Source: Trypanosoma brucei (Eukaryota). Taken from it: a stretch of 64,000 nt of DNA. The stretch lies in contig CP000068.1 in the NCBI GenBank assembly GCA_000002445.1, positions 1,440,001 through 1,504,000 on the forward strand, read 5' to 3'. Shown one piece after another: positions 1,172 to 52,935 of this stretch. The position numbers were made by a program, and so were the translations under genes. The notes under the pieces were generated by a model. That model ran no database searches. It saw only the letters and a program-made list of their open reading frames with translations, and was not told where the DNA came from. Numbering within the stretch: position 1 is the first letter of the stretch; the number at the start of each line of letters is the position of its first letter.

Positions 1172-3654
1172 CGTCTACTTATTCTTGGCGGTACCCTTTT
1201 TCTGTTACTACCGTGGTTTTGGTGTTATGCTTGTGTGTCTTTTTGTTGGTGTTGAAAAGAGGGAGAACCTTGATGTTTTCCGACGTTACTAATGCGCCCC
1301 TGACTGACCGCATGGAGGTGAGTCGTCTGTGGGTTGGCCTATAAACAATGCAACAGCTTGCAAGTCTTGTCCACAAAATAACCTCTTCCATTCTTTCCTC
1401 TGTTTTTTTCATCTCTACCCTATTCTCTCTATATTAAACGCTTTAAGTTTCCATATTTGCGTGTTATATCAGTGTTGAAATATATTTTCAGTTACCACTT
1501 TTGTAAGCACCAGTATTGTAACTAACATCGCAGTTTCTCGACCAAACGTCTACAAAAGTGCAGGCGCTTACCAGTTAGCTACATCACTGTTTTCTTGTCA
1601 ATTGGCGATACTGTGAAATGGTTAAACCTAATCTTGCTGATAGTTGCGCTTTGTAGATTTATTTGAGCTTTTTCATTGTTTTTCGGTGTACATTTTGTTG
1701 CCTCTTACCTTGGGTTTGTTGGTGAACTCTTTTTTGATGTTACGTTTTTTTCCAATTGGAGATTTATTGTTTCTAAAGCTTTTATTCTGTCTGTCTTACT
1801 GACTCGGTCTTTTCTGCTAGCACATAGAGATAAATACACAGAGAAAGCACTCTATATATACTCATTTCAGCACTACCCCTAGTTATTTTCATATTTCTAT
1901 TTACTTTTGTCATTCGTGCAAATATCAGTGCTTGACCGTATGTAGCGTGAAACTGAGAATGGATGTTGTTTCTAAGTTGGTTTTAATATGTTAGCCATCC
2001 GGTCATGTTTGTGCACAGTAATTCCCCGCTTGCGTTTACGCCTTGTTTGCGAGAATTTTCTTAATGATTGCTGCGATTTCTTTGTTTTCTGCTTTTCGTG
2101 CTCTTTTCTAGCACCTTGCACCCTTCCGAAAACTATTGTGCATTTAGGCTTATTTTGACCCTCACTGTCTCCCCTATGTCCGTTTGCCTTTCATCACAAG
2201 ATTGTGTGAGTGCCTTTTAAGTGCTGATCGCTTATATTAGCTTTTGTGAATGTACTAATACCGCTGTAGAATGCTCTACTAGACTTTTATATTAATATTT
2301 CTTGCGTTTTCTTGATTAGGTAGTTTATTATTGGTCTGTTTTTCATATTGAAGATACTTTGAAAGACAAACAACTCACTAATTATAATATGTAAGTTATC
2401 ACTTTCAATTTTTGACTTTAACATCTCTGCTACAATTGTCTCTTCTCCAGTGTTCTCGTGGCCAGCCCTGAGATCTGCGAGAAAATTGTAAGATACTGCC
2501 CTGTTCCTTTTCATCGCTGCGGCTGTATGGGCGGTCTGGCTGGATGACTATATTTTAGTCGCTGCGACCTCCTTGCGCTTTAGCTCGTTCGAGAGTAATT
2601 GCATTTTGACTTTGCTGCCCGCTGCTGCTTGTGCTTTGCTAAGTTTATCTGTTAGCGTCTTGATACAGCCGCGTCTTACGTTATCGCCGCACCGAATTGT
2701 GTCACATGGTTTGCTCACCTGGCCGCTCTTGTTATGCAGCACAGTAGGTGCCTGGGTTGTAATTGCTCTTGTTCGGCTTAACAGAAATTCGAATTGTACG
2801 TTGGCAAAAAGTCACGGCCCCGGTGTCGCGTCGCCTGGCTACCTCTGTATCTGACGGTCCTCGTGCAAGTCCAAACTGATCGTGGCTTCCGACGTCGGCT
2901 GCGGTTATGGAGGGGATAGATTTGTTTGAAAGCGCAGTGTTGGAGTCTTGGTTCTGGAGTTTTTCGGTTTGTTATCTTCTTTTTTTTTGTACAAACACAT
3001 TTTGGCCGACTTGCGTGCTGCCTGGCTTTTGCAGCTACGACACGAAATTTTTTTTACAATCAGAACTATTTGTAACCTCTCGGTACATTTATCCTCATAT
3101 AAGTTGTTGTATTAGCCTCGTCTCCAAATATATGACATAATCTCATTCAATTGCCTCACCTCTGCTGTAACTGTGTAAATCAACAGTATTCGCCGGCTTA
3201 AAAATCGTCGCTTTTAATATAAGTTCTTCTGTTTTATTCATCCATATCCAAGTGTAATAGAGGGTATTATCGGCACCTTCTTTTAAATACTAATGTATTA
3301 TTTTTTTGCGGTGCGCTGTGTCTTGTTACACATTGTTCCACCGCATTACATATTATTCCTTCTTCTCTTCCGTCTACTGCTTCTATCACATCACATGCTT
3401 CGTCGGCTCCATTTGACCAGTACACTCAATTTTATTTCTCACTTACTGTCTCTTCCACCATATACATACGTATTATGATTCCAACCGCCATATTTGTGTT
3501 AACATTGCGCATACTCATTTTCCTGTCTGTGTCTCCTTTTATAATATTGTTCGTGCACTCTTTCTCGCTCTTACTATTTTGCACAAAATTACTGTTTACC
3601 ATCATTTGCGTGCTTCAATTCTTCCCGACCATTAAATATTTGTTATCACTTCTC

Positions 3655-3730
3655 TTATTGTTACTGCTCTCATTATAATATTTGTATATACACACACTCG
3701 CAACATACTTCTATTATCCAAAATAATATA
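3655..3730 (-). repeat. 70-bp repeat, single copy
   Basis: '...cattataatatttgtatatacacacactcgcaacatacttctattatcc...' is the reverse complement of the T. brucei 70-bp repeat core (GTGTTGTGAGTGTGTATATACGAATATTATAATG). Confidence 0.75.
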
Positions 3731-4406
3731 AACGTAAAAAAATATCCATTAAATAAACATAATTAACTAAGGTGGAATAAAACTCATTTTTCATGTCCTA
3801 TAACCGTACTACATTACATCAACAGGACACTTTCATACATATTTTATTAAAAATTTTGAAATATACATTGTGATTCCGACCACCTCATCGTGGTGCGAGG
3901 GTCTAGTACTCCGTCCAGAAGGAATCCAACTGCCCCTATCACACACTCTCCGACAGGATTGTGACGAGAAACAGGACTTCTACCACAAGAGAAGGAGAAA
4001 GTAGCAGCATCGGCACTCTGGGGTAAAGAAATATATTAGACTGCTCCTTTGCAGGTGCGAGCGTTCCTCGATTGGGATACATAGGCTTCTACTACTACTT
4101 AGTGGAGATGTATAACAGAATACCAGTCTCATGACTCTTGGAGCCCAGTGGAATGATGGAGGTCTCTCCAAAGCAACGCGGATCGCCTTAGAGAAGAAAC
4201 TCCACAAAGATATGGTAGTCTTCTGTTTATTTTAGGAGACACACTTAGAAGCAGAAAAGTGCTGTGCATTAAAAATCAAAGGATACCAACACATGGTGTC
4301 ACATTCTCTGCATGGTGGTAAGGTATTAATTCTAGTGAGAGAACGCGTGGAAATCATCTAAGGTCCGAAGAAGGAGGGACTGCCGAAAAGTTCCTCGGAA
4401 ACACTG

Positions 4407-7191
4407 ATGTTTTCAGCCGATTTAACGTTAAATATAAAATCAGCTTACTTTCCACAGAAAAATGTCACTATATCCACGCTTGAAATCTTTGAGAGCTCAA
4501 ATAGAACACTGTTGATGGGATACGACACAAACGCACGTCATGAGTTACGGGACCTGTTATGCTCAAATGATACTGTAGGAGAATTTTTGTGGACTGGTGT
4601 CTACAAAATGATATCAAAATTGCAAATGGTGTCAACCCAACGATAAGAATGCTTCACACGGAAGCCATGCCATTTCCAGACGTTACGATGTACAGAGACT
4701 GCAAAGCCATAAGATGGGAGGCAAGTTTCAGTCCAGATAGTGACAACTACTGGATAACGTTTGAGGTGTGCATTGTGATTGGTGTAGAAACGATCGTCAT
4801 TGCAAACCCGCGAAGTGTGTTGTATGCTTGGAACAAAGCAAATTTGTGAGAGTTTAAAAAATGTGTGGCGTAACAATGTTGAAAAAATTAAGCAATTCGA
4901 AAAAAAAACGTGGATTCCATGAATGAGGCAGTGACTAAAGTCATTCGCACAGCAGCAAAGAAAACGATAACGAAATGTAAGTGAGTATTGCTACAGTTCT
5001 GGACACAAGAACTCGCCGAACTGGACACAAAAATAAGAGAGTATACAAATGAAAAGCACAGAGATGTCCTTACATAAAAGAGAAGGAAGGTTCTCACTGA
5101 AACGTCCCTACAACGGTGGAAGGAAAATGTGCCGAAGATGTCAGTGACCGATATTAAAAGTTCGAGTTTAGTTAAGTCCATTTATGCACAGAGAACACTG
5201 ACATCTCCGGTTATGGTAGTGAATGACCACCCCCTAACACGCAGACAGCAAGATAATAAGCTAGCACATATGTATAGAAACTCGCCGACGAAAGCACCAA
5301 ATGCTCCTTCCATGAGTACACCATATCGAGTGAGCGGAAAATTCGCACCAATAACGATGACATAATTTGAGATGGGACTGAGGGAAATGTCTTAAATCAC
5401 TTCCCCCTGTAAAGATGATATACATCGTAAACAACTGAGGAAATTAGGATGCCGTACCAAGTAATGTGTCCTCAAGCTTTTCAACTGTAGCCTACAGAGA
5501 CGCAGGATCCCGAAAAAGTGGAAGCATGACGTTATTGTCCCTATGCTCAAACCCAACAAACCGGCCAAGTGTATGTCATCGTTCCGGCCCATCACACTCA
5601 AAAGCACCCTCTGTAAACTCATGAAGAGGAATGTAGCGTGACGCATACAAGACACAGTAGAGTGTAAGCTACAACCAAAGCAAACTGATTTTCGTCCGGG
5701 GAAGTCTATATTAGACGTCACCATGAAACGCACAGACTCCATGACTCATAGAGTAGCAGGAGAAAAAACTGCTACGGTATTCATTTATTATGCTAGGGCA
5801 TTTGACTCTGTGGATCACATGTGCATAATGGATGCATTAAAAAGATATGAGGTGAACATGCGCCTCATTGCATGGGTTGCTAATTTTCTGTAGCGAAGGA
5901 CTGCAGTAGCATTAATAAACAACACCCCCTCAAAGAAAATACAGCTCACGTGTGGTGTTGTACAAGGTTCCGTGTTGTGGCCGTTGCTTTTTATTATCGC
6001 AATAGAGTTCCTCAGCGCGAAATTAAATGCCATACCAGCCTTTCAACACTGCTTACTCACAGACGACCTCACGATAGTGTCTTCTAACACTGACATGGAA
6101 GCTATTCGGTAGACGATACAAACAGGATTGGATTGTATAGTGAGCTGGTCAGCAGAGCGCTATATGAAGGTGTCTGCAGAAAAAACGCAATAGACGTTCT
6201 TTGTGGTGAGAGACAGAGACTAATTACACCTAATGGTGGGAGAGTACAGATTACATTAGAAGAGATATCTCAGACTCCTTGGGATGACAATGTAGCCACA
6301 CAAGGATGTAAACAAACATGCTCACACCCTACAAACAGCAGAAAATATGAGATTAATGAAACTAAGTGCTGTTGCATCACCTGAATAGGAGGATAGTAAA
6401 GAAAGCATCCGAGCATTTTACTTAGCCTTAATCCAGGCGAAATTATGCTATGGTACCGCTGCATGCTGGCTCAATGATTCTCCATCATACAAAAAAAAGC
6501 TTGACCGAGTACATGCGCAGAAGGAACATGTTATCGCGAGCATTCCAAAGTACGCGAATCGGGAAGATGCCATGAATGAGGCCCGCCTTCACAAGATAGA
6601 TGATGTTGCTTACAGACGAGCAATAGAATACTATTTAACAAGGAAAGCGAACGGTAAGGCAACGGTCTATACAGTGGAAAAAATGTTCTCACACAGTCAT
6701 CCGATACACACGCGTGTGTTGAGTGTGCCATACTTGTATGAGAAAGTAGATGGATCGGAGACGCCACACACGGCAAACGTATTGCAACTGGAGAGGAGAC
6801 TATACTTCAACACCGCAACGCCAGGTGGTCTCCATTCTGACTCTTCAGACAGCGATAAAAAAGACACATAATGCAAAGTGTACGCAGATTCAAAGACTAC
6901 GATTACCAAGTGTGTACGGATGGGTGGGTGGGACTGAATAAATCCTCTGGTGCCGGCGCGATAATATACCCTAGACAAGGTAATGTGGTAAAAGTGAAGA
7001 AAGGAGCAGACAGGTTAGTGTACAGCTACAGAGGCGAGTGTGCAACCATGGAGGGAGGACTTATGAAACTTAAGTCAGTAATAATGATCAAAGAGAGTAG
7101 AAAAATGAAAGTGGAAATATTCGCAGACTTGTTGCCTTTATTAATGGCACTTAAAACGGGTCTTACAGTAGTGAAAGATTCCATACTGTGA
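4407..7191 (+). pseudogene. Frame-broken endonuclease, reverse-transcriptase and RNase H polyprotein remnants of the ingi-like element
   Basis: Consecutive short ORFs in all three + frames align with the corresponding fragments of the second ingi in the window. There is no continuous ORF. Confidence 0.65.
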
Positions 7192-7765
7192 TGCATATGG
7201 AATTTGATCATACACTTCATGAAACTGAGAGTAGCCATGTCACTTCAGTTTGAGTTTTTTCATTCCCATATCCCGAGAAATAACAAAGTGAACGAGGTCG
7301 TAAACAAAGGAAACCACATGCCGCAAACCTAACCCTGCATTAATCACCGACATTTTAAGATGTATAATGCGCCAATTACGTAATCAGGCACAGCGGAACA
7401 TTGCGGAAGGCCGGCACCAAAACACACACCGCAGTGCTTTACTTAACCACATGAAACCAACATCCAAAAAGAAAGGATGCTGATAGGGAAGATGAGTCAC
7501 TGTTAGCTCAATTTAGAACAGGGACTTCAAAACATTTTGGGTTGCTGTATAAGGTGATCACATGAAAAGTGGACGAACTGGAGTGTAGATGGTGTGCAAA
7601 CCATACGGATAACATTCTCAAGAATATCACTGCATTACTCAAAACACTGCAAAGATGTAATAAAATGAGGAAGGAAAGGTGGTAATAGCTACAAGACAGA
7701 ATGACCCTGTCATATGCTCAGTTTGCAACATAATGTGTGAGAGATGACAAGCTGGAGATATTCAC

Positions 7766-9352
7766 ATGTTAAAAATACATCAGGTGGTTTGTGAAAATGC
7801 ACTTCCTGGATTAAAGATTGCGCCAATAGCAGCACAGGCGTATTCTGGCGTCTATCAGTGTCACTTATGTGGTAACGTATTCGAACGAAAGGGGACTACT
7901 GCAACAACATATGCTACAACACCTTCTCACAACTCCAGTAGTATGGAAAGAGCGACAAAAGAGGAAACGAGAAGAAAAAGAACAATGTATAACAACTGTA
8001 CACAAGTGTCAATGACGCCCCAAGCAGTATGCCACGTATAGCTTGTTGACAAGGCATATGTGTCAGAAACATCCTGAAAAGCAAACCGACGTGACACAAC
8101 AAACGGAAATACAAGATGTGAGTAGCGAAGATGAACAGGAGAAAGGAAAAGAAGCATACGAATGTCTCCGCTGCAAACAGGCGTATAAAAGGAAAACATG
8201 GCTTCACCAAACATAAGTGTAATCCTAAGCAGGGTAAAGGGAAACCAAGCGCACAACTACAGCACGTGCTGCCGGAGAGAGAAACATGTAAGATATGCGG
8301 TAAAGAGTACCGTCACAGCTGGATGTTGAGCCATATGAATACAAAACACCACGGGCATGATATCTCACTCAGACCCAAAGTCGATAAATATAAGAAAAGT
8401 AACGAATGAGATATCAAATTTGTAAGCAAAGGAAAACACTGGTGGAGATAATAAAAATAAAGATGACAATATGCCAAAACTTTATGTTGTGACAAATGCA
8501 AGAGGGGTTTCAAAAGCAAGGCATGTCTAACACGCCACAAGTGCGTGAGCATCGAAAATGCGGACCCAAAATGTCAATTTTGTGAACAACCCCCATAGTG
8601 CAATTACACAACCAGAAAACACTAACAAAAATAGATCGAATGTCAGCACCATAGATAGAGCACTCCCAAACTCAGACTCGTCACACAGAAAAAACTTGAT
8701 TTCCACGACAAGAAAGAGAAAAAGAAGAGACCGAGAATGACACTCCAGAAGGTATTAGAAAAATGTTCGATCAGAGAGAGGAGCTCAAACACAAAAGGCA
8801 GAAGGGCAAACAAAGAACCATCGTAGAGAGTTTGCATGTAAAAGGTGTGAGAACACCTGCGTGTCCTGGTGCACCCTAGCATGGAATACCAGAACACACC
8901 ACAAAAATGCAATCACTGTAAAGAGGAAGCGCGAAGAACGATCCCTTGAAATCACACCACAGACCTCTCTCGAGCACCAATGTTCACACTGCTTGAAGGT
9001 ATTTGCACACAATCAATATCTCACAATGCACCTCCAAGCAGCACATGGGCAGACACGTAACACTGATAGGCGAAATGAGCTAAAAGGAAAATGCAAAGAA
9101 ACATCGGCTCACCTATTACAGTCTCCCGCTTTGAGTAAGCTCATGTCAGAGCATAGAGTAGACAGTCTGAAAGAGGATTACTTATACTTTAGTGTTAAGC
9201 TGACGAACTTCCCAAAAGCATTCTTCTCTCCGACTGCAAATTCGGCTTCCACCATAGAAGCGAAGAAATTGATAACCCGACCGCGAGTAAATAGTGATAA
9301 AGGTTACCATCATGTTAAATATTCACTGACTACATGCGACACACTCGGATGA
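7766..9352 (+). pseudogene. C-terminal C2H2 zinc-finger region of the ingi-like polyprotein, fragmented
   Basis: Three CxxC...HxxxH motifs sit in separate ORF fragments. They are homologous to the zinc-finger fragments at 47903-48250 and 48887-49117 of the minus-strand ingi. Confidence 0.6.
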
Positions 9353-9744
9353 GAACCAGTGAGATTTTCCCCAAATAATGGACAACAATATCCAAAGAGG
9401 GCTTCCTCAACAAGACACCATTAGCCAGGCCCCACAGGAGGAAGCGAGTGGCGGATCGTGAAGATGGAAAACATATCAGCGAAGGATGTTGCCACAAGGA
9501 AAGTTTATATTGATCGATTGAGGCGCATGCAAGTTAATTTACAATGATAAAAATTTTAGATTTTTTATATATTTTAAAATTTTCAAAATTTTCAACAATT
9601 GACTCGTTATGAAACAATGTAAAAGCATATAAAGTTTCAGAAATTTCATAATATTCCACCAAAATAAAAAGTATTTTAGAAATTTCATAAAATTTATATA
9701 AATTCTTTATAATCCTCAAAGTCCGCAAAATACTAAACTTATAA

Positions 9745-11242
9745 AAGCAGTAGCCATACTTAGAGCAAATTTCTTATTGATAAGGGAACTGGAATCTTTG
9801 TAATTCTATCCTTCCCATTTGCAATTCGGAGATTTGCAGTCATCCATTTTCTTATCCTTGCATTTCTATGTTGTTGTTTCGGTTCCACAAGTTTGAGTTT
9901 TTGTTTCAGGGACACCATTTGCTGTGGATTTGGTTGCGTTAAACTTGCACTTTTTATCCTCTTCAGTTTCGGTACTGTTATAACTACAGAAAGGTTTGTC
10001 GTTGCATTCGTTTGCATCCTTTATTTTATTGCATTCAGTTTCCCCTAAGTTGTTGTTGCTCGCCGACAACCGGGCTACAGTCAGCTCCTTTCTTAGTTTG
10101 CTTATAAGCTCCGCTGCTTCCTTCTCGCAAAAAGCCAGGATCGCCGCCAGCTGCCCTGGCTCCGTTACAGCTCGTAGCTCTGTTTCGTCGCCGTTGTTAA
10201 TTATTTTCATTGTCAATTTGTAACTATAGACTTCGTGGAGAAAGGCTTGAATTTTGTCTTTTACTGGTTCTTTGAACGCCTTCTTGACTTTGTCGTCTAG
10301 CTTCAGGTTTGCTTTGTCGGTTGTGGCGTGGATGAGGTGTAAAACGGCTTCTTGGAGGTCCGGCGTCGCTTCAGATACCGTGGTGTTGTCGTTTTTGGCG
10401 GGGTTTTCTGTTTAAAGTGCTTCAATGGCGTTATAGAGGTCGTTCCATACCTTCGCGTCGCCTGTTGTTTGTGCCTTTGCCGTCCCCAACCCCAGTATTG
10501 TTAGGGCATTGTTCGCCTGCGAGACACTGATGAGGTTCATGGCGAGTTTCGCTGGCTGTGTTAGGGCTCCGTCTTTTGCTAGTCCGTTTGCGTTTTGAGC
10601 GTTGAAAAGCACGCAGTCCTTGCTCGCTTGTGTTTGGTGTTCGTTGGCGCTGGCCGCCTCAAGCATGTTTGTGAAACCGCTGGCGTCCGTTAAGTCGAGG
10701 TTATAGTCTCCGGTTACGTCTATGTTTGGCGTTACTGCGCAACTTGTGCCGCCTGCTCCTTGTAGTTTGGTTGCGTGGCAGTAGCCGCTGTTAGCTTGGT
10801 CGAGGAGGCAGCCTTTTCCGCCGTTTACAGTGTGCGTCGCAATCGTCAAAAATTCGGTCAGTCTGCCTTGGAAGTATTCAGCGGCGCTGCTTGCTTTAAT
10901 GGCAGTTTCAATGGCGACACTTGTTAAATTGTTTAGCGTTTTTTCTGCTTTTGTGGCAAAAAATACTTGCAGTATCCGGGCTTGCCGGGCTTTATCCGCG
11001 TCCGCTGTTTTCATTGCAAAGATGGCGCAACGTGTTGCTGTTTTGCTTAGCCGCTGAGCTAGTTTTGTGGTTTCTTTTAGCTTTGTGGCCGCTGCTTTAG
11101 GCACCTGGCCTAGTTTGTCCGCAAGGCCGCATATTTTTGTCCAGGAGCCGTGAACCATGCCGTCGCCTGCAGCCGGGGATGCCTTCTGAGAATTTACTAT
11201 CATTATGAGCAAGGCTTGAGCGAATGCTGCTACCGCCTTCAT
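9745..11242 (-). pseudogene. VSG pseudogene (frameshifted)
   Basis: ORF 10412-11314 has the signal peptide 'MKAVAAFAQALLIMIVNS' and a VSG N-terminal domain. The C-terminal domain lies in other frames (9866-10216 '...CNKIKDANECNDKPFCSYNSTETEEDKKCKFNATK'). The GPI tail '...NKKFALSMATA' precedes a stop near 9745. Confidence 0.75.
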
Positions 11243-13074: not shown

Positions 13075-13160
13075 TACCAAAATTTTGTTATTATAATATT
13101 CGTATATACACACTCACAAAACTCTCCTATCATTAGCATTACTATTATAATATTACAATA
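13075..13160 (-). repeat. 70-bp repeat, single copy
   Basis: 'attataatattcgtatatacacactcacaaaactctcctatcattagcattactattataatatt'. Confidence 0.75.
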
Positions 13161-13431
13161 ACTAATGTTTATAAATAACCAAAATAAGAAGATAAACCAA
13201 GATGGAAAAATTTTAGAATAGCACTCATTTTCATACCATATTACCGTGCTGCTCTACACCGATAAGTTACTTTCATGCCAAAATGTAGTTCTTAATCTAT
13301 TCAAAATTTCACTAATTTTCACATTTTCATCAAAGGGTCTTAAGTTGTATCAAATTTTAGGAAAATTTAGCAAATTATCTCAAAGTATAAAATTTGATAC
13401 AGTTGGGTAAAAATCTTTAAAAAATTCAAAA

Positions 13432-14940
13432 TCATTAAAATCCTACAAAGCTTATAAATGCAGCAGCCATACTCAGGGCTAAATTCTTACTGACCAGAAA
13501 ACTGGAATCCTGAAACTTGCCTTCAATCCAGCCGCAAACTGCCTTCCTTCTGTGTGGAATATCGCCAATCACAGCTTCACAGTCTGTCTGGTTCTGAAAG
13601 CTGCTGCACACAGGTTTGGCAGTATTACCCCCGTCCTTGCTTTCTCCTGTTTTGTCTGCTGCATCTGATTTGACGTCTGATTCGGGTGCTGTTTTTGTTG
13701 CTGCTTCTGCTGGCTTTTGGTAACGCTTGCTGCTAAAGAAAGAAAAGGCCAGCCCCGCTTCTGGTGTGTTTGCAATCTGTTCTATATTTTTGGTTTCCGC
13801 CTTGCCAGCCACTTTGTACGTCACTTTGGGATGCGTTAATGTTTTTAAAAAGTTTTCTGTGAGTGGTTTGCTGTCATTTCCGAATATATCTGCGACGCGT
13901 TTTTGTAGTTTTTTCTTGTCTTCTTGTTTTTCTGGGTCTAGGATGCCTGGGGGATAAATTAAAAGTTGCGCTGCTATTTTAAGCATGCCTGGATCTTCAG
14001 CAAGCTCCTTGGGGCTAGATGTCGAGACCGCTGTTGGTTGCGCCGGCTACACGGTTCTGGCGTTGCACAACGCTGCTGTTAGGTTGTCGAGAAAGCCATC
14101 TTTTTTGTCTTGCAATTTGGGTTTTGTAGCGCAGGTCGTTCCGCCTGCTGTTCCGTCGAATAAACTCGTCGCTGTGTATTCCTTGTCGTCGTCAAATTTG
14201 AGGTCCGCGCCGATGCCGTTGACTACGCTTTTTCTTGGCTGCGCGCCTGTTGCGCAGTCTTTTGCTGTATTTTGCGTCATGCTGGCAGTGTTGCCGTCGC
14301 CCGCCGCTAGCGCTATAATGGTTGGCGTCCTGTGCGTGAAGAATGTGTCTGGTGCCGCTTTGATTTGTTTAGCTGTCCTTAGTTGTTGGCTTTCCAGCTT
14401 TAGCGCCGGCGTTCGGTCCTCTGTGCTGTCGCATTCACTTCCTCGGCTTGGGGGCTGGTTTAAAGTTATTGTGCATTTTCCTGTGCTTGTCCCACCAGTT
14501 AGCGTTCAGTCATTGTGCGCGAATGTTACAGACTTTTTGGCTGGTTCGCTTTTCCGTCGCATCTTCAACGCAGCTGCTATAAGATCTAACCTGACCGACA
14601 ACTGTTTTAGCGCCTCCCTGCTTGCTACAATTTTTTGCCTGTTTGCCTCCTGTGCTCTGGCTGTCTTGGCTTTGGCGAGTCGCTCCAGCGCGAGGTATCC
14701 TTTTTCTTTGGCGCCGTCGTCGACGGCGGCCACTGCTAGCGCGTATTTTTCACTTTCGGCGCTCATGGCGTCTGTTGCTTTTTGTGCCGCTATTATGTTT
14801 CCTTCAAAGTGCTGTTTTAGTTGCGCCATGTAAACTTTTTCGGTGCAAATGTCAGTTACCGCTGTAAAAGCTGATTGTTCATCTTGGGCGCCGCAGACTA
14901 CTGCAATGAGCATTGTCGCAAACGCCGCCCTGGTACACAT
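13432..14940 (-). pseudogene. VSG pseudogene (3 frame fragments)
   Basis: N-terminal ORF 14506-14940 has the signal peptide 'MCTRAAFATMLIAVVCGA'. A middle fragment is at 14047-14280. The C-terminal ORF 13435-13986 ends '...CGWIEGKFQDSSFLVSKNLALSMAAAFISFVGF*', a class-1-like VSG GPI signal. Confidence 0.8.
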
Positions 14941-16520: not shown

Positions 16521-17981
16521 AATTTATAAAATTGAGAAAAATTCTAAATATTTTTCATTTGAAGTCAAAAATGCAGGCAAAAGAGGGACCTTATGAATGA
16601 CAAAAGAATTGCTTTCTGTGGTGTTTGTATTTTTGTCATCATTACCTTCTGTTTCTTGGTTTGCTTTTTCTAGTTGTGCTTTCACATCCTTTTTTAACTC
16701 ACACTTTTTGGTGTTTCTATCAAATATACAGCCTTTCTCCTTTAGAGTTTCACATTTTCCTTCGTCACCTGTCGCCTCATTGCATAGTTTCTCCTCTGGT
16801 GTCGGTTGGGCTGACGAACAGTTGCAAGCATCCGCGGCTGTAGGGATGTTTCTTTGAATGGCTTTGTTGATCGTGTAGTTTGTTTCTAGTTCAGTGAGTA
16901 AGGGTAGGTTACTGATCTCAGCAAGTTTCGTCCCCTTCGTAACCCCGTGGGAGTCCTCTGCTAGCGTCATTGTTTTCAGTTTATTCCAGAACATTGTTGT
17001 TGGATCTGGGTCTTTGCTGCCGTACAGTTTTTCCATTGCTTGCTCTTTTTCCTGTCCGCTGAAGGGTTTGCTGGCGCCAACGGCTGCTGCAAGCGTGGCG
17101 TCAAAGTTGGCAAGGTTTTTCAGGGCATTTTTGTCGGGAAGCTCGATGGTGTTTATTACAAGTGCCGGCTGTGACAATTTGTTGAATGATTTTTCGGCAT
17201 GCCTTTTCTTAGAATCGCCTTCTGGCCCTGCTAGGCTGCTGAGGTCCGTGAGTTGGGCGTCCGTGCTGCTTAGACTGATGAGCCCCATAGCTACGTGTTT
17301 GTTGGCGCCGTAGGTTGCGCTTTCTACCGGGCCGTTGTTGTTGCCGCCGCCGTGTATTTTGCAGCCTTTTGCGTTGGTCGACCATAGGTTGTTTTTGTCT
17401 GTTTTGCGTTTGTACCCCCCTGGTCGATGCGCACTTTTGTCTTGCCATCCTGTTGTGTGTCCGAGGTCGGTCGCTTTGCAATTTGCTACCTGCGCCGCGA
17501 GTTGGTCGCTTGTGTATAAAGTCCCTGCGTTTTCGTCATCTGCAAAACAACCGTTGGTGTTGGCGTTTGTTGCTTGTCCCGCTATATTCAGATACTCGTA
17601 GAGGCCGCGGAGCAAGTAGTTGCTCCGCCTTATAGCTTCTATTGCCAACATTGCGGTTGCTTTAGTAAACTTGGCTGCTTCCTCTGCTGCTGTTCTGTGC
17701 AGGGCGGCGCTGATTGCTTGTAGTTGTAGTGCCTCTTGGGCGGTCGAAGCTGCTGCTATTAGTATCCGTACCTTGGCCAAGACGGCTTGGTTCGCCGATA
17801 GCTTGTCTGCTGCCGCCGTTAGGCCATCGGCGTGAACCTGCTCCTTGGCCCTGACTTCTGCCGCAATATCGCAAACCTGCTCCAAGCCATTCTTTGTGAG
17901 TGCTTTGTCGTTGGCTGCTTTTACCTTCGTCCGGTTCGCTGTACCGCAAAGGAGCAGTATTAGCGCTATCCAGTGGTGCAT
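16521..17981 (-). CDS. VSG with full-length ORF but lost canonical stop and extended GPI-signal tail (probably non-functional)
   Basis: Single 508-codon ORF 16524-18050. The likely start is 'MHHWIALILLLCGTANRT' (signal peptide). The VSG C-terminal domain '...KGCIFDRNTKKCELKK...TNTTESNSFVIHKVPLLPAFL' continues as 'TSNEKYLEFFSIL*' instead of ending '...LLLAFLLF*'. Confidence 0.8.
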
Positions 17982-23124: not shown

Positions 23125-23200
23125 TTTTATTATAATATTCTTATATATACACTCAAGACACTTTCCTATTATTATTATTTATTATTATTGCTATTATAAC
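23125..23200 (-). repeat. 70-bp repeat, single copy
   Basis: 'ttataatattcttatatatacactcaagacactttcctattattattatttattattatt'. Confidence 0.7.
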
Positions 23201-23467
23201 CCTACCTAATATGCATAAAATAATTTAAATAAACTAAATTAGAAAATTCAAATATTACGCATTTCTCATACCATATTACTCTGCTACTTTGCATCCATAG
23301 GCTAATTTCATACCAAAAATACTAAAATTCATTATCTTGATAATTTTTAAGGTTTAATCAAAAAGAGTTAAAACATATCAAATTTTATGAAGTTTATAAA
23401 ATTCTTTCAAATATAAAAGTTTCATAAGTTCCTCAAGATTTATAAAAAAACATTTATGAATTTCTAA

Positions 23468-33239: not shown

Positions 33240-34030
33240 GCGTTTAGTCTTTATTATTATCATTATTATCATTAATGTTATTACTGCTCTCATTATAATA
33301 TTCGTATATACACACTCACAACACTTTCCTATTATTATTATTACTATTTATACTATTACTGCTCTTATTATAATATTCGTATATACACACTCACAACACT
33401 TTCCTATTATCATTATTATCATTAATGTTATTACTGCTCTCATTATAATATTCGTATATACACACTCACAACACTTTCCTATTATCATTATTATCATTAA
33501 TGTTATTACTGCTCTCATTATAATATTCGTATATACACACTCACAACACTTTCCTATTATCATTATTATCATTAATGTTATTACTGCTCTCATTATAATA
33601 TTCGTATATACACACTCACAACACTTTCCTATTATTATTATTACTATTTATACTATTACTGCTCTTATTATAATATTCGTATATACACACTCACAACACT
33701 TTCCTATTATCATTATTATCATTAATGTTATTACTGCTCTCATTATAATATTCGTATATACACACTCACAACACTTTCCTATTATCATTATTATCATTAA
33801 TGTTATTACTGCTCTCATTATAATATTCGTATATACACACTCACAACACTTTCCTATTATTATTATTACTATTTATACTATTACTGCTCTCATTATAATA
33901 TTCGTATATACACACTCACAACACTTTCCTATTATTATTATTACTATTTATACTATTACTGCTCTTATTATAATATTCGTATATACATACTCACAACACT
34001 GTTCTATCATTATTACAATTATAACTATTA
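33240..34030 (-). repeat. 70-bp repeat tandem array, ~10 copies of 76-77 bp, two alternating subtypes
   Basis: Repeated unit '...attactgctct(c/t)attataatattcgtatatacacactcacaacactttcctatta...'. The spacer is either 'tcattattatcattaatgtt' or 'ttattattactatttatact'. The order is II,I,II,II,II,I,II,II,I,I. It lies ~1.25 kb upstream of the telomere-adjacent VSG. Confidence 0.9.
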
Positions 34031-47561: not shown

Positions 47562-47605
47562 AATTATCTGAGTAGAAGATTCCAAAATTTTTCTAAATTT
47601 CCTAA

Positions 47606-50600
47606 TTTTTTTTTCATTGTGCATTTATTGTGCTCGTGCTTCGGTAGGGTCGTTACTGCTCCTGTGGCTCTGCAAACCAGAAAGGGACGTTGAGCGCAAC
47701 GGGGATCCCATCCTCGCTTTATTGAATGAAACTTTGAAGCTGATTGACTTATCCGCAGTTTCAGCTTCAAGGGGACGTTTCCTCATGGTTTCTGCAGTGC
47801 ACACCCATAACGACTTCGCTGCCGCAGAGGTGTGGTAGGCGAAATCCAACTCCGTGGGCGACCAGTGCCTCTTCACGGCTTGAGTGGGCCCAGATGTTGA
47901 CTCTAAGATTGGGGGGAGGGGGCAGATGGGCTCTCTAGGTTTAAGAGCTCCTTCAGGAAGCTGGCTAGTTGCACACTGAAGAACACTTCCTCGTCCTTCA
48001 GGGTTTCCAGACCGTGCTTTTCCCTTAGTGCTCGCAAGCTTGGGCACTGAAAGAGGTGCACTGCAGACTCCTTACACTTCACCTTCACTGAGTTATACTC
48101 AGCTTTCTTCTTCAGTTGGCCGTGCTTCGCGTGCAGGTGTATCGTGAGGCACTGCTTGACTGTGCACTTCATTTGGCAGTATGGACACTGGAGTGACCTT
48201 TGCAAAAGAGGTGTTACCGCTACCGTGCGGTCCTTCAGCTTCCGTTTCACTGCCGTGGCGTGCTCATGATGTGTGCGCGTGTGTCAAATCAGTGAGCACC
48301 ACTGCTTGTACGCCCTGCTGCGTCTATCATACACATAGTCCATTCCCTCTTTTCCTTCTGTGTGGCGGCCCACCCGAGGACGCTTCTGCGGTCTCTCCCC
48401 ATTTTCCCTTCCTGCTGACTCCAATGACCCACTCACCTTACTCTTTGCCTGAGCTTATGCTTTCACTACCTTTCGCTTTGCCTTCTCTTGTGGCTGAGGA
48501 CGCAATGACTCGTCGTGACCCGGGTGCTTTTCCAGCATGTGTCGCAGCAACCATCTGTAATGATATTGCTTTCTAAAAATGGAACACGCCACTGTAACCG
48601 ACTGCTCTGCCATGTTAGAGTCTTCCGAGTTCGTGTTCGAGGTTGGTTCGCACTTGTGCCTGGTGGGCCATGTCTTGCTTTTGAGGACGCGTTGGCACCT
48701 GTAGCATACAAATTCCTTTTTATCCTGCTCCTCCTGCTCTGCATCGCCATCACTGTCGGACGCGTCCTGTGACTCTATGGCGCTGCGCCTTAACTGCTTT
48801 TCCGGGTTTTTCTGCAGCCACGCGTGTACAGTGTACTTTTTCGCACACCAACGCCATTTGAGTGCGTTGCCATTATCGGCCCCATCTTACTCCACTGCTG
48901 GCACTCTATCCGGAGGGTGCTGTGCCATATACTCCACGAGTAGCCCACACCGCTCAAAGACATCACCGCACACATGACATCTGTAACCATTCTTATGCGT
49001 CTGCACCGCACCCTTAGCTTTCTTGGTCAGTGCTAATGCATAATTCCTCCCCAGACCATGAATCTTCACTAGGTGCACCACGTCAGGCTTTCTCCGCCCG
49101 CAAACCACGTTGAACAATCGGCAAGTGATCTGGTCGTTGCTCCTTGTCGCGATTCCAGGATATGGTGCGTTCGCATTGTCCGATGCTTACTCCGCCCCCC
49201 GGGCGCTCCTCTGCTGTGTCGCTGCGTGGTTCCTGCGTGTCGCACCGTATGCATCCAAGCTGGTCCGTCTTGCGTGTGAGCACCCTGTTAAGCGATCCAA
49301 AATGCTTCGAAGTGCCTGTTCTGAAGTGCGCCATCAGCGTCTCACCCAGACGTACCAGCCTTGTGTGCTTCGGTGCGGCCCGAACGTAGTCGAGTAGCGC
49401 ACTACGATGCGTACGCGGCATCCGGACCTCCTTGAAGGCCTTGTATACCGCATTCCCGACCTTCCTCTCCACACACGTCACTATGTCAGTGATCCATGCT
49501 GGATACGACTGCAGCTTTGTGTTTCCCTGCTCAACTGCCTTTTCAGCAGCTTCATCGCGCGGCACCCCGCAGTGTGAGAACACGAAATGGAAGTTGACGG
49601 ACACAAGAAGCCGCACAATACTCAAGATAAGATCCCAAATGCGTCCCAGAATCGAGCCCTCCACAACTTCAGGGCCAGTGCTCAGCGCCATCAACAGCGA
49701 AATTAAATCCGTGAGGGTCACCACTCTCGTTCTGTGCGTCTTGCTTAGCTCCATGAAATCCGCTAGCCTCTTCAACCCCGCCTCCATCGCCGCACATTCC
49801 GTGCGATAGCTGCAGGATGGCGACCCAACTCCCAGGGCAACCTTCTTCCGCTTCCTCTCTTTCGGGTACACAAGGGCACCTGCGCCTGAAGAGACGTCCA
49901 GCACCACGGACCCGTCCGTCCACACCTGGTTATCATAGTCCTTGAACAACTGTACCTGCCGCATGGTGTGCACCTTCTTGTCCCTCCCCGGCGCACCCGC
50001 TTTGAGGCCGCCTGGCTCGTTGGTGTTAAAGTGGACGCACGTGGCCATCCGCAACACCGTCGCATCGTGTGGATTCTCAGGGCCATCAATGGTGTTTTAC
50101 GGACGCTGTACCGTCGCAAGCATGACATGGGCTGGATGCTCAGGCGGGAATATGCTGTTCGTAATTTTTAATTGCGTTGGGCACTCTGCTTTCAGGCGTA
50201 GATAGCATGCCAAGGCTCTCAGGTGCGCCATATCATTTATAAACTTTAGCCGAGCTTCTCACACGGCATCCTCCCGATTGGCTGCCTTGGGAATACCCGT
50301 CATTATGTGTGCTGCCTGTGCCTGCACCCTCTCTAGCCTCTCATGATCCGACAGCGAGGAATCGGACCACCATGAAGCAATGCCGTAGAATATCTTAGCC
50401 CGGACCAGCACTAGGTAGAATGCTCGCAGTTTCTCCCTGTCTGGGCCCCATTCTGGCGACACCACTGCCCTAAGCTGCATGAGCCGCGTGTCTGCCGCTG
50501 CCTTCACGCTCCGTGCATGCTTGCTCAAACCCTTGTGCGGCTGCACGGTAATACCGAGCAGCTTCGGTGTGTACACTTCCTTCAACACAGTCTCTCCAAT

Positions 50601-52886
50601 CCTCAGGTAAAGCAGGTTTGTGTCCCGCGCACCGAACAGTGTGTACTCAGCTTTCCCCGCTGACCAATTTGTGACTCAACTCAGTCCTTGTTGAACGGTT
50701 CGCTGGATTGCATTCAGGTCAGAGCTCGTGCATACTATTGTGAGGTCGTTCGCAAAGAAAACGTGCTGCAACCCAGGGATGCAGTTCAGCCGCTTGCTCG
50801 GCGAATCCACCTTGACAATGAACAGCAGTGGACCATGCACCGAGCCCTGAGGGACCCAGCATGTGAGGTGTATGTTCTCAGACAGCATATTGCTCGCCCC
50901 CACCCGCGCGGTGCGACCCTGCAGGAAGCCCGCAATTCACGCCACCAGATGCTTCTCAACTCCAAATGTCTCTAGTGCCTTAACCATGCAGCCGTGATCA
51001 ACCGAATCAAAAGCGCGCGCATAGTCAATAAATACAGCTGCTGTCTTCTCACCGTCCCTCCTCCGCCGCACTGCGCTTGTCACCTGCATGAGCGTGTCCA
51101 GCGTCGACTGCGCCGGCATGAAGCCTGCTTGCTGTGGCTGCAGATTGTCTTCAATGCAGTTCCTAACACGACGTGCCACAATGTGCTCCATCACTTTGCA
51201 CAGCGTGCTGATGAGAGTGGCCGGCCGAAAGGACGCGGTACTGCTAGCTGGCTTGCTCGGCTTAAGCAGCGGGACTGTGATGCCGTGCCTCCACTTGGCT
51301 GGTACCCTCCCCGCGCGCAGACTGCAGATGAACAGTCGCAGCGCACACTTTTTGGCTACTCATCCTAGCTGCTTCAGCTCCTCTCAGTGGATTCCATCAT
51401 CGCGCGCCGCCGTGCCAGAATGCAGCTCACACAGCGCAACTTTCAGCTCTGACTCGGTGACCGGCCGGAACGCGCTCCGTCTGGTGCTGGGTATCTTCAT
51501 TTCTGGCGCATGTGGTGCCTTCGTTGACCTGGCCTTGTACATGTTGACCAAAGTTTGTGCTTACTGGCGCTTTGTCAACCGATGGCCATTCACCACCAGC
51601 ATTGGCGAAGTCAACGACCGCGGCGCATATACCGACTTCACCAGGTTCCAGTTCGCCGAATCCGTGGTCGCCGGCTTCGACACATTTTCCTTCCACCAAC
51701 CCAGCGCCGTTTCAGCCAGCGCTTTCTTCCTCCAGCGAGTCAGCCCGTCCAGATTCGTCAGCCCCTGTGTCCAGAACGGTAACGCTACGCCCTTGCCCTT
51801 GGGAATTGTCCTCTTTGCGGCCATTCGGATGCCTCATGTCACCGCCTCGTCGAGGGCATCCGCGCCCTTGTCCGGCCTCTTCATTCCTCTGAATATGAAC
51901 TCGTCACTCAATTTTCTAAACTCCTGTCACCTCGCTTTGTTCCGTGCATACAGTGTACGTGTGGGCTTGGGGGGGGGGGCAATCACGTCTAGGCAGGTGC
52001 CCCACGAACACATCGAACGTGATCTAATAATGATCACTGTGCGGGCTCAGTGTGTATGCCAAGTTAGAGATCTCGCGCAGCCTCCACACAACGTGATGTC
52101 CGGCGACGATAGTGCACCCGTTCCCGGCTGCCTCCTGGTGATCGATCCGGTATTCGCAACTTTCAGATCGCTCTGCACGCACCAGTTGACTACGCACTCT
52201 CCCTTGTCGTCGCTCGGACGAAACGGATCCCACAACACGTGGTGTGAGCTCACGTCCGCTTCTGCTACCAATGGCCCGCTTTCTACCGCTAATTGTTTCA
52301 ACTATGCTTTTGAATTCATCGATTTTCTAGGAAAATAAGCTGAAGCGCCTGCCAGGTTCACAGCAGCAGAAAATCGCAGCGTCGCTGTCACTTTTTCTGG
52401 CACTTCCTTGTCCATCTTTCACACCCCCACTCCCACCCCTGTGCGGTGTTTTTGCCACAACTACATGCTGCTATCCGCCTATTTGAAGCGCAGCACACTC
52501 CACCGACGCTAGGAGTGTCTCCTGCAAGAGACAAAATAAAACCATATCCTCATGAATCTTCCTCTTCATGACAACCCGCTTCGACTGGAAGAAACCCCTA
52601 AATTTCCACTGGTTTCCACGAATAACGGGAGCAAGATTCGTCTCAACATCTTCACTAAGTAGTAGTATAAGCCTTTTTATCCCAATCGAGGTAAGGTTGC
52701 ACGTGCAGAGGAGCAGTCTAATATATTGCTTCACCCTAGAGTGCCGATGCTGCTACATACTTCTTCTCTGGTCGCCGAAAGCCCCCTTTCCACCCCAATC
52801 ATGTTAAACAGGGCATAATGCGGGCGCTTGTCTTCCTCCTGGATAAAGTACTAGACCCCGGCACCACATTGAGGTGACCGGCATCA
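47606..52886 (-). mobile_element. ingi: ingi non-LTR retrotransposon, ~5.28 kb, degenerate (frame-broken)
   Basis: The 5' end (minus sense) is '...ccatggtgatgccggtcacctcaatgtggtgccggggtctagtactttatccaggaggaagacaagcgcccgcattatgccc...', the RIME/ingi terminal region. The 3' end is '...gagcacaataaatgcacaatg' plus A9 (poly-T at 47606-47614 on +). Internal minus-strand ORF fragments cover the endonuclease (52047-52301), 51561-51824, RT (50937-51194 '...AAVFIDYARAFDSVDHGCMVKAL...', 50676-50903, 50259-50588), RNase H (49083-50057) and C2H2 zinc fingers (48887-49117 'HVCGDVFERCG', 47903-48250 'CPYCQMKCTVKQCLTIHLHAKHG'). The coding region is interrupted by multiple frameshifts. Confidence 0.9.
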
Positions 52887-52935
52887 CCATGGAAATCTGC
52901 AAATTTTAGTAAAAAAAAGAGCAAGAATTCATAGA

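What the first reader, a model, noticed from the sequence alone, without database searches (positions are those of the whole stretch)
3655..9745. Second, diverged ingi-family element also nested in a VSG 3' flank, in opposite orientation
The plus-strand element (3866-9555, ~5.7 kb) is flanked on its 5' side by 70-bp repeat plus ~135 bp, and on its 3' side by ~190 bp leading to the stop of VSG 9745-11242. These two pieces again sum to one normal VSG downstream region. Candidate degenerate TSD: 'attttgaaatata' (3853-3865) and 'attttttatata' (~9566-9577). Both retroelements in the window therefore sit in the same kind of site, the AT-rich VSG 3' flank. That may reflect endonuclease target preference or tolerated sites in silent arrays. 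Homology between the two elements' 5' junctions extends ~25 nt upstream of the shared 'ggtctagtact' core ('aaattttgaaatatacattgtgattccgacc' vs 'aaatttgcagatttccatggtgatgccggtc'). From sequence alone this cannot be assigned either to the element terminus or to a conserved target-site motif.
Basis: seen in the sequence. Interest (0 to 1): 0.5.

Follow-up and report, generated by a model that had tools for sequence, protein, structure and literature searches.

The report
Dead ingi-like retroposon beside VSG pseudogene
This is a full-length but dead copy of an extinct Trypanosoma brucei retroposon lineage (a DIRE related to the ingi elements of T. vivax and T. congolense) sitting in the AT-rich spacer behind a silent surface-antigen pseudogene; this kind of element is already catalogued, so the finding is ordinary.

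Summary
A 5.69-kb non-LTR retroposon lies on the + strand at 3865-9552 (±1 nt), antisense to the VSG array. The window is T. b. brucei TREU927.

It is not a canonical T. brucei ingi. It is a degenerate ingi-clade element (DIRE) of the ingi6 lineage:
- Its endonuclease, RT, RNase H and zinc-finger remnants are collinear with T. vivax and T. congolense ingi ORFs at 31-59% aa identity.
- It starts with the Pr77 signature and ends in ACAATGA plus a short A-run, like a control Tvingi copy.
- It is preceded by the ingi6 target motif TTTTxxxxxA^A plus 12 nt, not the Tbingi (ingi4) motif.

The second element (52892-47607, − strand) belongs to the same lineage and is much less diverged (74% nt identity to Tvingi and Tcoingi).

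Removing the element rejoins one normal VSG downstream spacer. The distance from 16-mer to 70-bp-repeat core becomes 237 nt, against 175-249 nt in ten intact paralogues.

About 17 nt of the shared upstream sequence are the element's own 5' end. The remaining ~14 nt are target site, and their similarity is explained by the ingi6 motif.

The TSD is only vestigial (8/12) and not significant alone.

Known biology; low interest.

The parts
3652..3711 (-). Single 70-bp-repeat unit belonging to the next VSG cassette downstream, read in VSG sense
   Evidence: The exact core GTATATACACACACTC is at 3684-3699. It aligns with the 70-bp units of 10 paralogous flanks.
3712..3841 (-). Distal part of the split VSG downstream spacer. 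It holds the conserved blocks GTATGAAAGTG..., ...TATTCCAC and TTATTTAATGGATATT.
   Evidence: Collinear alignment with intact paralogous flanks.
3842..3852 (+). ingi6-type target motif TTTTxxxxxA^A (TTTT at 3842-3845, AA at 3851-3852)
   Evidence: It scores 6/6 with the element start set at 3864 and 5/6 with the start at 3865. The ingi4 motif scores at most 5/10. [quoted passage not shown] Its frequency in VSG flanks is 0.0053 per position. The motif is taken from PMC3820030.
3853..3864 (+). 5' copy of the vestigial 12-bp target-site duplication, ATTTTGAAATAT (alternative register 3852-3863)
   Evidence: It matches the 12-mer abutting the A-tail at 8 of 12 positions. This is weak on its own (P 0.02-0.10).
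3865..9552 (+). E1: a full-length degenerate ingi-clade retroposon (TbDIRE, ingi6-related), 5,688 bp, boundaries ±1 nt
   Evidence: Pr77 lies at the 5' end. The coding remnants are collinear with the Tvingi ORFs. The 3' end is ACAATGA plus an A-run, as in Tvingi L006. At least 16 in-frame stops fall in 1,107 homology-aligned codons, and there are at least 3 frameshifts.
3865..3939 (+). Pr77 ('76-79 bp signature'), including the DPE motif CGTG at 3889-3892
   Evidence: It shares 49 of 59 aligned nt with L1Tc Pr77 positions 12-72. The five-way alignment includes Tvingi, Tcoingi and L1Tc. The DPE definition comes from PMC4748587. The P1 helix of the L1Tc ribozyme is not recovered in the MFE fold.
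4008..4583 (+). Remnant of the AP-endonuclease domain
   Evidence: tblastn with T. vivax P0073 aa 4-197 gives 46% identity. P0073 carries PF14529.
4586..6832 (+). Remnant of the reverse-transcriptase region. The Pfam RVT_1 core maps to about 5561-6286 (my conversion from the translated residues).
   Evidence: Pfam RVT_1, E = 1.2e-25. Identity to T. vivax and T. congolense RTs is 45-54%.
6859..7876 (+). Remnant of the RNase H region, reached after a frameshift at about 6832-6859
   Evidence: tblastn with Tvingi ORFb aa 233-570 gives 43-59% identity. ORFb carries a weak PF00075 match.
7911..9013 (+). Remnant of the C-terminal C2H2 zinc-finger region, with about 300 bp extra relative to E2 between 8397 and 8867
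   Evidence: tblastn with Tvingi ORFc gives 31-38% identity, and aa 33-115 match twice. tblastx offsets against E2 jump from +116 to +411.
9540..9552 (+). 3' terminus TACAATGA, then T, then a short A-run
   Evidence: Aligns with CACAATGA+A(n) of E2 and of Tvingi L006.
9553..9564 (+). 3' copy of the vestigial TSD, ATTTTAGATTTT (alternative register 9552-9563)
   Evidence: It lies at the start of a 9-bp periodic run, 9553-9600.
9565..9715 (-). Proximal part of the split VSG downstream region, including a degenerate 16-mer at 9617-9632 (11/16 to TGATATATTTTAACAC, counted by eye)
   Evidence: The 16-mer is placed by its position in the alignment with paralogous flanks. It has too many mismatches to appear in the pattern scan.
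9716..11242 (-). VSG pseudogene (A-type N-terminal domain, frameshifted C-terminal domain, GPI-signal remnant)
   Evidence: PF00913, E = 5.6e-43, on 10415-11242. PF10659 on 9869-10216. The ORF is fragmented.
47607..52892 (-). E2: the other ingi6-type DIRE in the window, used as comparator. Its TSD candidates are ATTTGCAGATTT (52904-52893) and ATTAGGAAATTT (47606-47595).
   Evidence: It aligns end to end with Tvingi L006 (74.3% nt) and Tcoingi L003 (74.6% nt). TSD 9/12. ingi6 motif 6/6.

Best explanation
E1 (3865-9552, + strand) is a fossil, full-length non-LTR retroposon of the trypanosomatid ingi clade. It is a TbDIRE of the ingi6 lineage, the lineage of T. vivax Tvingi and T. congolense Tcoingi, which is extinct in T. 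brucei.

Proposed history (inferred from family knowledge):
1. The element's AP-type endonuclease recognised a TTTTxxxxxA^A site in the AT-rich spacer between a VSG's 16-mer and the next cassette's 70-bp repeat.
2. It nicked the first strand. The A-tailed RNA was reverse-transcribed from that nick (target-primed reverse transcription).
3. A second nick 12 bp away produced a 12-bp duplication.
4. Because the copy is full length, it carries the Pr77 5' signature.
5. Since then it has decayed by point mutations (stops), a few frameshifts and a small internal length change. Nothing found here suggests any remaining function.

Shown directly: the element's identity, boundaries, orientation and domain order, the target motif, and the rejoined empty site.
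Inferred: the insertion mechanism, and that the 8/12 match is the remains of the TSD.
For: Organism: the intact VSGs of the window are exactly XP_845139 and XP_845138 of T. b. brucei TREU927, on a 1.6-Mb contig.

Family:
- Pfam RVT_1, E = 1e-25.
- The best protein matches are T. vivax and T. congolense reverse transcriptases, 45-56% identity for E1 and 64-76% for E2.
They score 320-429 bits. A Strigomonas protein scores 307 bits and all others score 202 bits or less.
- The EN, RT, RNase H and zinc-finger remnants are collinear with the three ORFs of a complete Tvingi.

Termini:
- The 5' end aligns with CCCTGG of L1Tc Pr77, Tvingi and Tcoingi.
- The 3' end ACAATGA+A(n) is as in Tvingi L006.
- L006 is a positive control. 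It has a perfect 12-bp TSD (AAGAATGCAATA) abutting CCCTGG and the A-tail, preceded by TTTTATTTTA^A.

Target:
- The ingi6 motif scores 6/6 for E1, E2, L002 and L003. The ingi4 motif scores at most 5/10.
- The motif occurs at 0.0053 per position in VSG flanks.

Empty site:
- The rejoined flanks align collinearly with at least 10 intact paralogues.
- The spacing is restored: 237 nt against 175-249 nt.

Literature (PMC3820030): 12-bp TSDs throughout the clade, the ingi6 motif, and eight ingi6-type TbDIREs in T. brucei, all preceded by that motif.
Against: - The TSD is only 8/12, and P is about 0.10 once the AA start is imposed. The 3' flank is a 9-bp periodic run that gives other, equally good matches.
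- The exact 5' boundary and register are uncertain by 1 nt.
- I could not retrieve a Tbingi or L1Tc protein, so there is no tree containing all ingi subclades. For E1 alone the margin is modest. Over the N-terminal 256-258 aa of the RT query it is about 45% identical to two unnamed trypanosomatid-like RTs (P0133, P0135). That compares with about 50% to the T. vivax RTs over the whole RT query.
- No orthologous empty site from another strain could be fetched.
Confidence: 0.88

Rival explanations
1. E1 is a strongly decayed copy of the canonical T. brucei ingi (Tbingi, ingi4 subclade).
For: It has roughly the same size class (5.7 kb against 5.25 kb), the same clade-wide Pr77 signature and the same domain order. 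No Tbingi protein was available for a direct comparison.
Against: - The upstream ingi4 motif AxxxxxxxTxxxGTxGGxTxxx^xTxTxxTxxxxx scores only 3-5 of 10, whereas the ingi6 motif scores 5-6 of 6.
- The 14-nt Tbingi/RIME Pr77 motif GCCGGCACCTCAAC (PMC12975129) is absent from both elements' 5' ends. E1 has CCGACCACCTCATCGTGG, identical to the T. vivax copy L002.
- The best protein hits are all T. vivax or T. congolense. No T. brucei ingi protein appears among the listed hits, and for E2 only the best 120 of 316 hits were listed.
Confidence: 0.04
2. The two flanks of E1 were never one site. Recombination or gene conversion within the VSG array brought an element-bearing fragment next to unrelated VSG-flank pieces, so there was no simple insertion here.
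For: VSG arrays recombine frequently (general knowledge). The TSD is not statistically secure. The paralogues are only 60-65% identical, so the junction cannot be placed to the nucleotide.
Against: - The rejoined flanks contain every conserved block of a VSG downstream region once, in order, with normal spacing of 237 nt against 175-249 nt.
- The element is complete at both ends.
- The ingi6 motif sits at the expected distance from the 5' end.
Confidence: 0.05
3. The ~14 nt of extra similarity upstream of the two 5' ends belong to the element itself, which would make its true 5' end about 14 nt further upstream.
For: E1 and E2 share 10 of 14 nt upstream of the Pr77-defined start, P about 0.005 against random flank pairs.
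Against: - The Tvingi and Tcoingi copies are unrelated to each other and to E1 and E2 upstream of CCCTGG, apart from the TTTT...AA motif.
- In Tvingi L006 a perfect TSD abuts CCCTGG.
- Once both sites are required to carry TTTTN5AA, the remaining similarity is not significant (P = 0.20).
Confidence: 0.03

Closest known systems
TbDIRE of the ingi6 subclade (called TbDIRE2 in Bringaud et al. 2006, as cited in PMC3820030)
   Same: - Host is T. brucei.
- About 5 kb, with a degenerate ORF.
- Pr77 signature at the 5' end and an A-run at the 3' end.
- Preceded by TTTTxxxxxA^A plus 12 nt.
- RT closest to Tvingi and Tcoingi.
   Different: Nothing essential differs. E1 is longer (5.69 kb) and much more diverged than E2. 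On polarised sites the E1 lineage shows 946 changes and the E2 lineage 256. I could not check whether this exact copy is one of the eight catalogued elements.
Tvingi (T. vivax) and Tcoingi (T. congolense), the potentially active ingi6 retroposons
   Same: - The same termini: CCCTGG-type start and CAATGA+A(n) end.
- The same domain order.
- The same target motif and 12-bp TSD rule.
These points were checked on L002, L003 and L006.
   Different: - E1 has at least 16 in-frame stops and at least 3 frameshifts.
- It is only 31-59% identical at the protein level.
- Nucleotide similarity is detectable only in the first ~380 nt and in patches.
- It is in a different species, where the lineage is extinct.
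Tbingi/RIME (ingi4), the active T. brucei pair
   Same: Same clade, with the Pr77 signature, a 12-bp TSD and a single multifunctional ORF.
   Different: The target motif is different (tested, not met), the Pr77 variant is different, and E1 is not among close relatives by protein search. E1 is non-coding.
L1Tc (T. cruzi, ingi1)
   Same: Pr77 is 49/59 identical over positions 12-72, including the DPE motif CGTG at +25 to +28.
   Different: L1Tc is 4.7 kb and active. Its Pr77 has shown promoter and HDV-like ribozyme activity. In E1 the 5'-terminal heptamer that pairs in the L1Tc fold is mutated, and the MFE fold does not recover that helix.

Membership tests
ingi clade non-LTR retroposon (trypanosomatid) | Conserved 76-79-bp signature (Pr77) at the 5' extremity | tested here: met
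   3865-3939 aligns with L1Tc Pr77, Tvingi and Tcoingi. The invariant core is CCACCTCA.CGTGGT...GGGT.TAGTACT.
ingi clade non-LTR retroposon (trypanosomatid) | Single long ORF with the order AP endonuclease, RT, RNase H, C2H2 zinc fingers | tested here: met
   The remnants of all four regions are collinear with the Tvingi ORFs, although interrupted.
ingi clade non-LTR retroposon (trypanosomatid) | 3' poly(dA) stretch | tested here: met
   ACAATGA, then T, then A5, homologous to CACAATGA+A(n) in E2 and Tvingi. The tail is very short.
ingi clade non-LTR retroposon (trypanosomatid) | 12-bp target-site duplication | tested here: inconclusive
   8/12 for the abutting pair, P 0.02-0.10. By the criterion of PMC3820030 (over 65% identity) it counts as a vestigial TSD.
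[quoted passage not shown] | About 5 kb, full length with the signature, but the ORF destroyed by accumulated mutations | tested here: met
   5,688 bp. At least 16 stops fall in 1,107 homology-aligned codons, and there are at least 3 frameshifts. The longest open stretch is 197 codons.
ingi6 subclade (Tvingi/Tcoingi/TbDIRE2) | Upstream motif TTTTxxxxxA^A followed by the 12-bp TSD | tested here: met
   6/6 with the start at 3864 and 5/6 with the start at 3865. The same motif is found for E2, L002, L003 and L006.
ingi6 subclade (Tvingi/Tcoingi/TbDIRE2) | RT domain groups with Tvingi and Tcoingi in a phylogeny | tested here: inconclusive
   The nearest proteins by score are all T. vivax or T. congolense. 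No tree with named Tbingi or L1Tc sequences could be built. For E2 the case is clear, with 74% nt identity end to end.
Tbingi (ingi4) | Upstream motif AxxxxxxxTxxxGTxGGxTxxx^xTxTxxTxxxxx | tested here: not met
   3-5 of 10 specified positions in every register.
Tbingi (ingi4) | Tbingi/RIME-type Pr77 containing GCCGGCACCTCAAC | tested here: not met
   no match at the element's 5' end with up to 3 mismatches. E1 reads TCCGACCACCTCATC.
HDV-like ribozyme (L1TcRz type) within Pr77 | A nested double-pseudoknot fold with helix P1 formed by the first nucleotides, and self-cleavage at +1 | tested here: inconclusive
   No Rfam match. The MFE fold of L1Tc pairs nt 1-7 with 31-37, whereas E1 does not, because ACATTGT faces GCGAGGG. 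Pseudoknots and activity cannot be tested with these tools.

The most novel reading that the evidence does not exclude
VSG downstream spacers may have been a preferred landing zone for the extinct ingi6-type endonuclease.
- The motif TTTTN5AA is about 4.4 times denser there than in the window as a whole.
- Two ingi6-type DIREs lie in one 64-kb array, against eight catalogued for the genome (PMC3820030).

E1 may also come from an older, A-rich ingi6-related subfamily that has not been separately described, rather than being a more decayed copy of the E2 family.
- Its first ~380 nt are 72% identical to E2, but its coding blocks only 55%.
- Its lineage-specific changes are biased towards A on the sense strand.

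If so, such fossils could be used to date VSG-array cassettes.
Probability: 0.2. Interest if true: 0.3.

Novelty: already known. Interest (0 to 1): 0.12.

Why it matters
It matters little beyond correct annotation. The element should be labelled as an ingi6-type DIRE rather than as ingi. The VSG next to it is a pseudogene, and the element lies outside the segment normally copied in VSG gene conversion.

One modest use is that old DIREs embedded in VSG cassettes are markers for the age and rearrangement history of silent arrays.

Tried and rejected
- Rfam scan of the whole window: no family reached its threshold, so there is no catalogued ribozyme or RNA at the 5' end.
- Exact-protein look-ups of window VSG ORFs, to fetch the same locus from other strains as a true empty site: nothing on record. 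Only the identity of the strain was recovered.
- Attempts to obtain named Tbingi or L1Tc proteins for a tree:
  - The library search returned unnamed representatives.
  - The contigs fetched for P0149, P0133 and P0135 are from unidentified sequencing runs. The 5' ends read for the first two (L001, L004) carry a Pr77-like signature of a different type, so they were not used as references.
- The key family paper (PMC2756862) is not held.
- Minimum-free-energy folding of the first 77 nt: z-scores are near zero for all five sequences, including the active L1Tc, so this method cannot judge ribozyme competence.
They do not abut the A-tail and lie in a 9-bp periodic run.
- Nucleotide-level repeat search for an internal duplication in E1 found nothing convincing. 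The evidence for extra sequence is only at the protein level.

Full report
**Setting.** The window is a silent VSG array of Trypanosoma brucei brucei TREU927. Two intact VSG ORFs of the window (52942-54540 and 16527-17981, both − strand) are exactly XP_845139 and XP_845138, on a 1,608,198-bp contig. The VSG domains tested lie on the − strand. 70-bp-repeat cores recur on the + strand as their reverse complement, with 21 matches against 0.4 expected. The VSG 3'UTR 16-mer recurs likewise, with 16 matches against 1 expected.

**What is at 3655-9745.**
- A 5.69-kb stretch on the + strand carries a Pfam RVT_1 domain (E = 1.2e-25).
- It has remnants of endonuclease (4008-4583), reverse transcriptase (4586-6832), RNase H (6859-7876) and a C2H2 zinc-finger region (7911-9013).
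- These remnants are collinear with the three ORFs of a complete T. vivax ingi copy.
- The reading frame is broken by at least three frameshifts and by at least 16 stops in 1,107 homology-aligned codons. The longest open stretch is 197 codons.
- The neighbouring VSG (9716-11242, − strand) is itself a pseudogene. It has an A-type N-terminal domain on 10415-11242 and a C-terminal-domain fragment on 9869-10216 in another frame.
- On the other side there is a single 70-bp-repeat unit (core at 3684-3699).

**Boundaries.**
- The first 77 nt of T. cruzi L1Tc (Pr77; sequence from PMC1874656) align with both window elements. L1Tc position 1 corresponds to 3865 in E1 and to 52892 in E2.
- I fetched real ingi6 elements as references: T. 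vivax L002 and L006, and T. congolense L003.
- In a five-way alignment all copies become alignable at CCCTGG (ACATTG in E1, CCATGG in E2). Upstream of that point they share only a TTTT block and an A-run.
- L006 is a clean positive control. The element starts at CCCTGG and ends with CACAATGA plus A17. It is flanked by a perfect 12-bp duplication, AAGAATGCAATA, preceded by TTTTATTTTA.
- E1 ends with the homologous TACAATGA, then T, then A5. E2 ends with CACAATGA followed by an A-run.
- E1 is therefore 3865-9552, ±1 nt.

**Which family.**
- PMC3820030 summarises the ingi clade. All members have a 12-bp TSD. Three lineages have distinct upstream motifs. The ingi6 lineage (Tvingi, Tcoingi, TvRIME) has TTTTxxxxxA^A plus 12 nt. 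The ingi4 lineage (Tbingi, RIME) has AxxxxxxxTxxxGTxGGxTxxx^xTxTxxTxxxxx.
- That paper also states that T. brucei has 73 DIREs. Eight of them are ingi6-type, and all eight are preceded by the ingi6 motif.
- E1 matches the ingi6 motif at 6/6 (start 3864) or 5/6 (start 3865). E2 matches at 6/6, and so do L002 and L003. The ingi4 motif never exceeds 5/10.
- The Tbingi/RIME Pr77 motif GCCGGCACCTCAAC (PMC12975129) is absent from both 5' ends. E1 instead reads CCGACCACCTCATCGTGG, exactly as the T. vivax copy L002 does.
- Protein searches return T. vivax and T. congolense reverse transcriptases as the best hits. Identity is 45-56% for E1 and 64-76% for E2.
These include the best 150 representatives of a 1.84-billion-protein library search made with the T. 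congolense RT P0009. E1 and E2 rank the same T. vivax (Tvingi-type) proteins first.
- E2 aligns end to end with Tvingi (74.3% nt) and Tcoingi (74.6% nt).
- E1 is far more diverged. It is 47% identical to E2 at the protein level in RT and 55% at the nucleotide level in coding blocks. Nucleotide similarity to any reference is detectable only in the first ~380 nt and in patches.
- Both elements are thus DIREs of the ingi6 lineage, not Tbingi. I could not obtain named Tbingi or L1Tc proteins, so the RT-phylogeny criterion remains formally untested for E1.

**Empty site.**
- I joined the left flank, ending at 3863, to the right flank, starting at 9564. One search used 3500-3863 plus 9564-9900, and one search used 3670-3863 plus 9564-9760. 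The joined sequence aligns collinearly across the junction with at least 10 intact VSG downstream regions of the window, at 60-65% identity.
- All landmarks occur once and in order: GPI-signal coding end, 16-mer, a variable AT-rich stretch, the conserved GTATGAnAGTG...TATTnTAA block, TTTATGGATATTAG, a TAA/TGA run, and the 70-bp repeat.
- From 16-mer to 70-bp core the rejoined site measures 237 nt. The ten intact paralogues measure 175-249 nt.
- E1 lies about 50 nt distal to the degenerate 16-mer, in the inter-cassette spacer. E2 lies between the stop codon of an intact VSG and its 16-mer. 'The same kind of site' is therefore true only in the broad sense.

**TSD and the shared upstream sequence.**
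- The 12-mers that abut the element are ATTTTGAAATAT and ATTTTAGATTTT for E1 (8/12). For E2 they are ATTTGCAGATTT and ATTAGGAAATTT (9/12).
- Against random 12-mer pairs from VSG flanks these have P = 0.022 and 0.006. Conditioned on both copies starting with AA, P = 0.10 and 0.03. E1's TSD is vestigial and not significant alone.
It is separated from the A-tail by TTTTAG and lies in a 9-bp periodic run that produces several 10/12 matches at arbitrary offsets. I reject it.
- The similarity between the E1 and E2 junctions divides cleanly. About 17 nt (ACATTGTGATTCCGACC against CCATGGTGATGCCGGTC) are the Pr77 terminus. The ~14 nt further upstream are target DNA.
- That upstream similarity is unusual for random flank pairs (10/14, P = 0.005). 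It is not unusual among flank sites that carry TTTTN5AA (P = 0.20). It is therefore explained by the endonuclease's target motif.
- The motif is itself 4.4 times denser in VSG flanks than in the window overall.

**Mechanism (inferred from family knowledge).** An ingi6-type endonuclease nicked at A^A. The A-tailed RNA was reverse-transcribed from the nick. A second nick 12 bp away created the duplication. A full-length copy with Pr77 resulted and has since decayed.

The DPE promoter motif CGTG (PMC4748587) survives at +25 to +28 in E1 (3889-3892) and is TGTG in E2. The 5' heptamer that pairs with nt 31-37 in the L1Tc fold is mutated in E1. Simple folding does not recover that helix, and the method has no discriminating power here. 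I see no evidence of present function.

**Verdict.** The interpretation needs refinement: a DIRE of the ingi6 lineage, not ingi. The open question is answered. This is catalogued biology (PMC3820030 and references therein). Interest is low.

Noticed in passing
window 47546-54540: E2 separates an intact VSG ORF (52942-54540, = XP_845139, 'VSG, atypical') from its 3'UTR 16-mer (47546-47561, 1 mismatch). The element starts about 46 nt after the stop codon. The gene's native 3'UTR is therefore interrupted by 5.3 kb.
   Followed up: partly
window 3889-3892 and about 52868-52865 (− strand): The Pr77 downstream promoter element CGTG (+25 to +28) is intact in the more decayed E1. It is mutated to TGTG in the better preserved E2.
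   Followed up: partly
window 8287-8867: E1 is about 290-400 bp longer than E2 and Tvingi, and the extra sequence lies here. Residues 33-115 of the Tvingi zinc-finger ORF match E1 twice. This suggests an old internal duplication, or cross-matching of repeated C2H2 motifs. No repeat is detectable at the nucleotide level.
   Followed up: partly
window 3865-9552 (E1) against E2, L006 and L003: On sites polarised with Tvingi and Tcoingi, the E1 lineage has 946 changes and the E2 lineage 256. E1's changes favour A on the sense strand. G>A affects 27.7% of ancestral G, against 16.5% of ancestral C for C>T. C>A affects 18.4%, against 10.1% for G>T. The surrounding + strand is T-rich, so the bias follows the element's own strand rather than the chromosome's. 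The cause is unknown.
   Followed up: partly
window 3865-4248: The first ~380 nt of E1 (5'UTR plus the start of the ORF) are 72% identical to E2 and 66-70% identical to Tvingi and Tcoingi. The coding blocks are only 55% identical to E2. Conservation here is at the nucleotide level, because tblastx hits appear in all three frames. That fits a cis-acting 5' region, and it suggests that part of E1's divergence predates its insertion.
   Followed up: partly
window 9553-9600: A short 9-bp periodic run (ATTTTAGAT / ATTTTCAAA units) lies immediately 3' of E1. It is the source of several spurious TSD-like matches.
   Followed up: yes
window 33304-33994: Ten 70-bp-repeat cores spaced 75 bp apart form the only long 70-bp-repeat array in the window. 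The other cassettes have one or two units.
   Followed up: no
VSG flanks throughout the window (for example 13090-13435, 23124-23480, 56090-56420): The ingi6 target motif TTTTN5AA occurs at 0.0053 per position in VSG downstream spacers, against 0.0012 in the window overall. I did not test whether this exceeds what the AT-rich composition alone predicts.
   Followed up: no
L004 900-990 and L001 80-150: Two unnamed retroelement contigs from public sequencing runs (SRR10017629, SRR22388086) carry Pr77-like 5' signatures of a different type (GGTCCAGTACCCCGTGATGGGGGAAGCTAAGAGCC in L004). They probably come from other kinetoplastids. The organisms were not identified.
   Followed up: no
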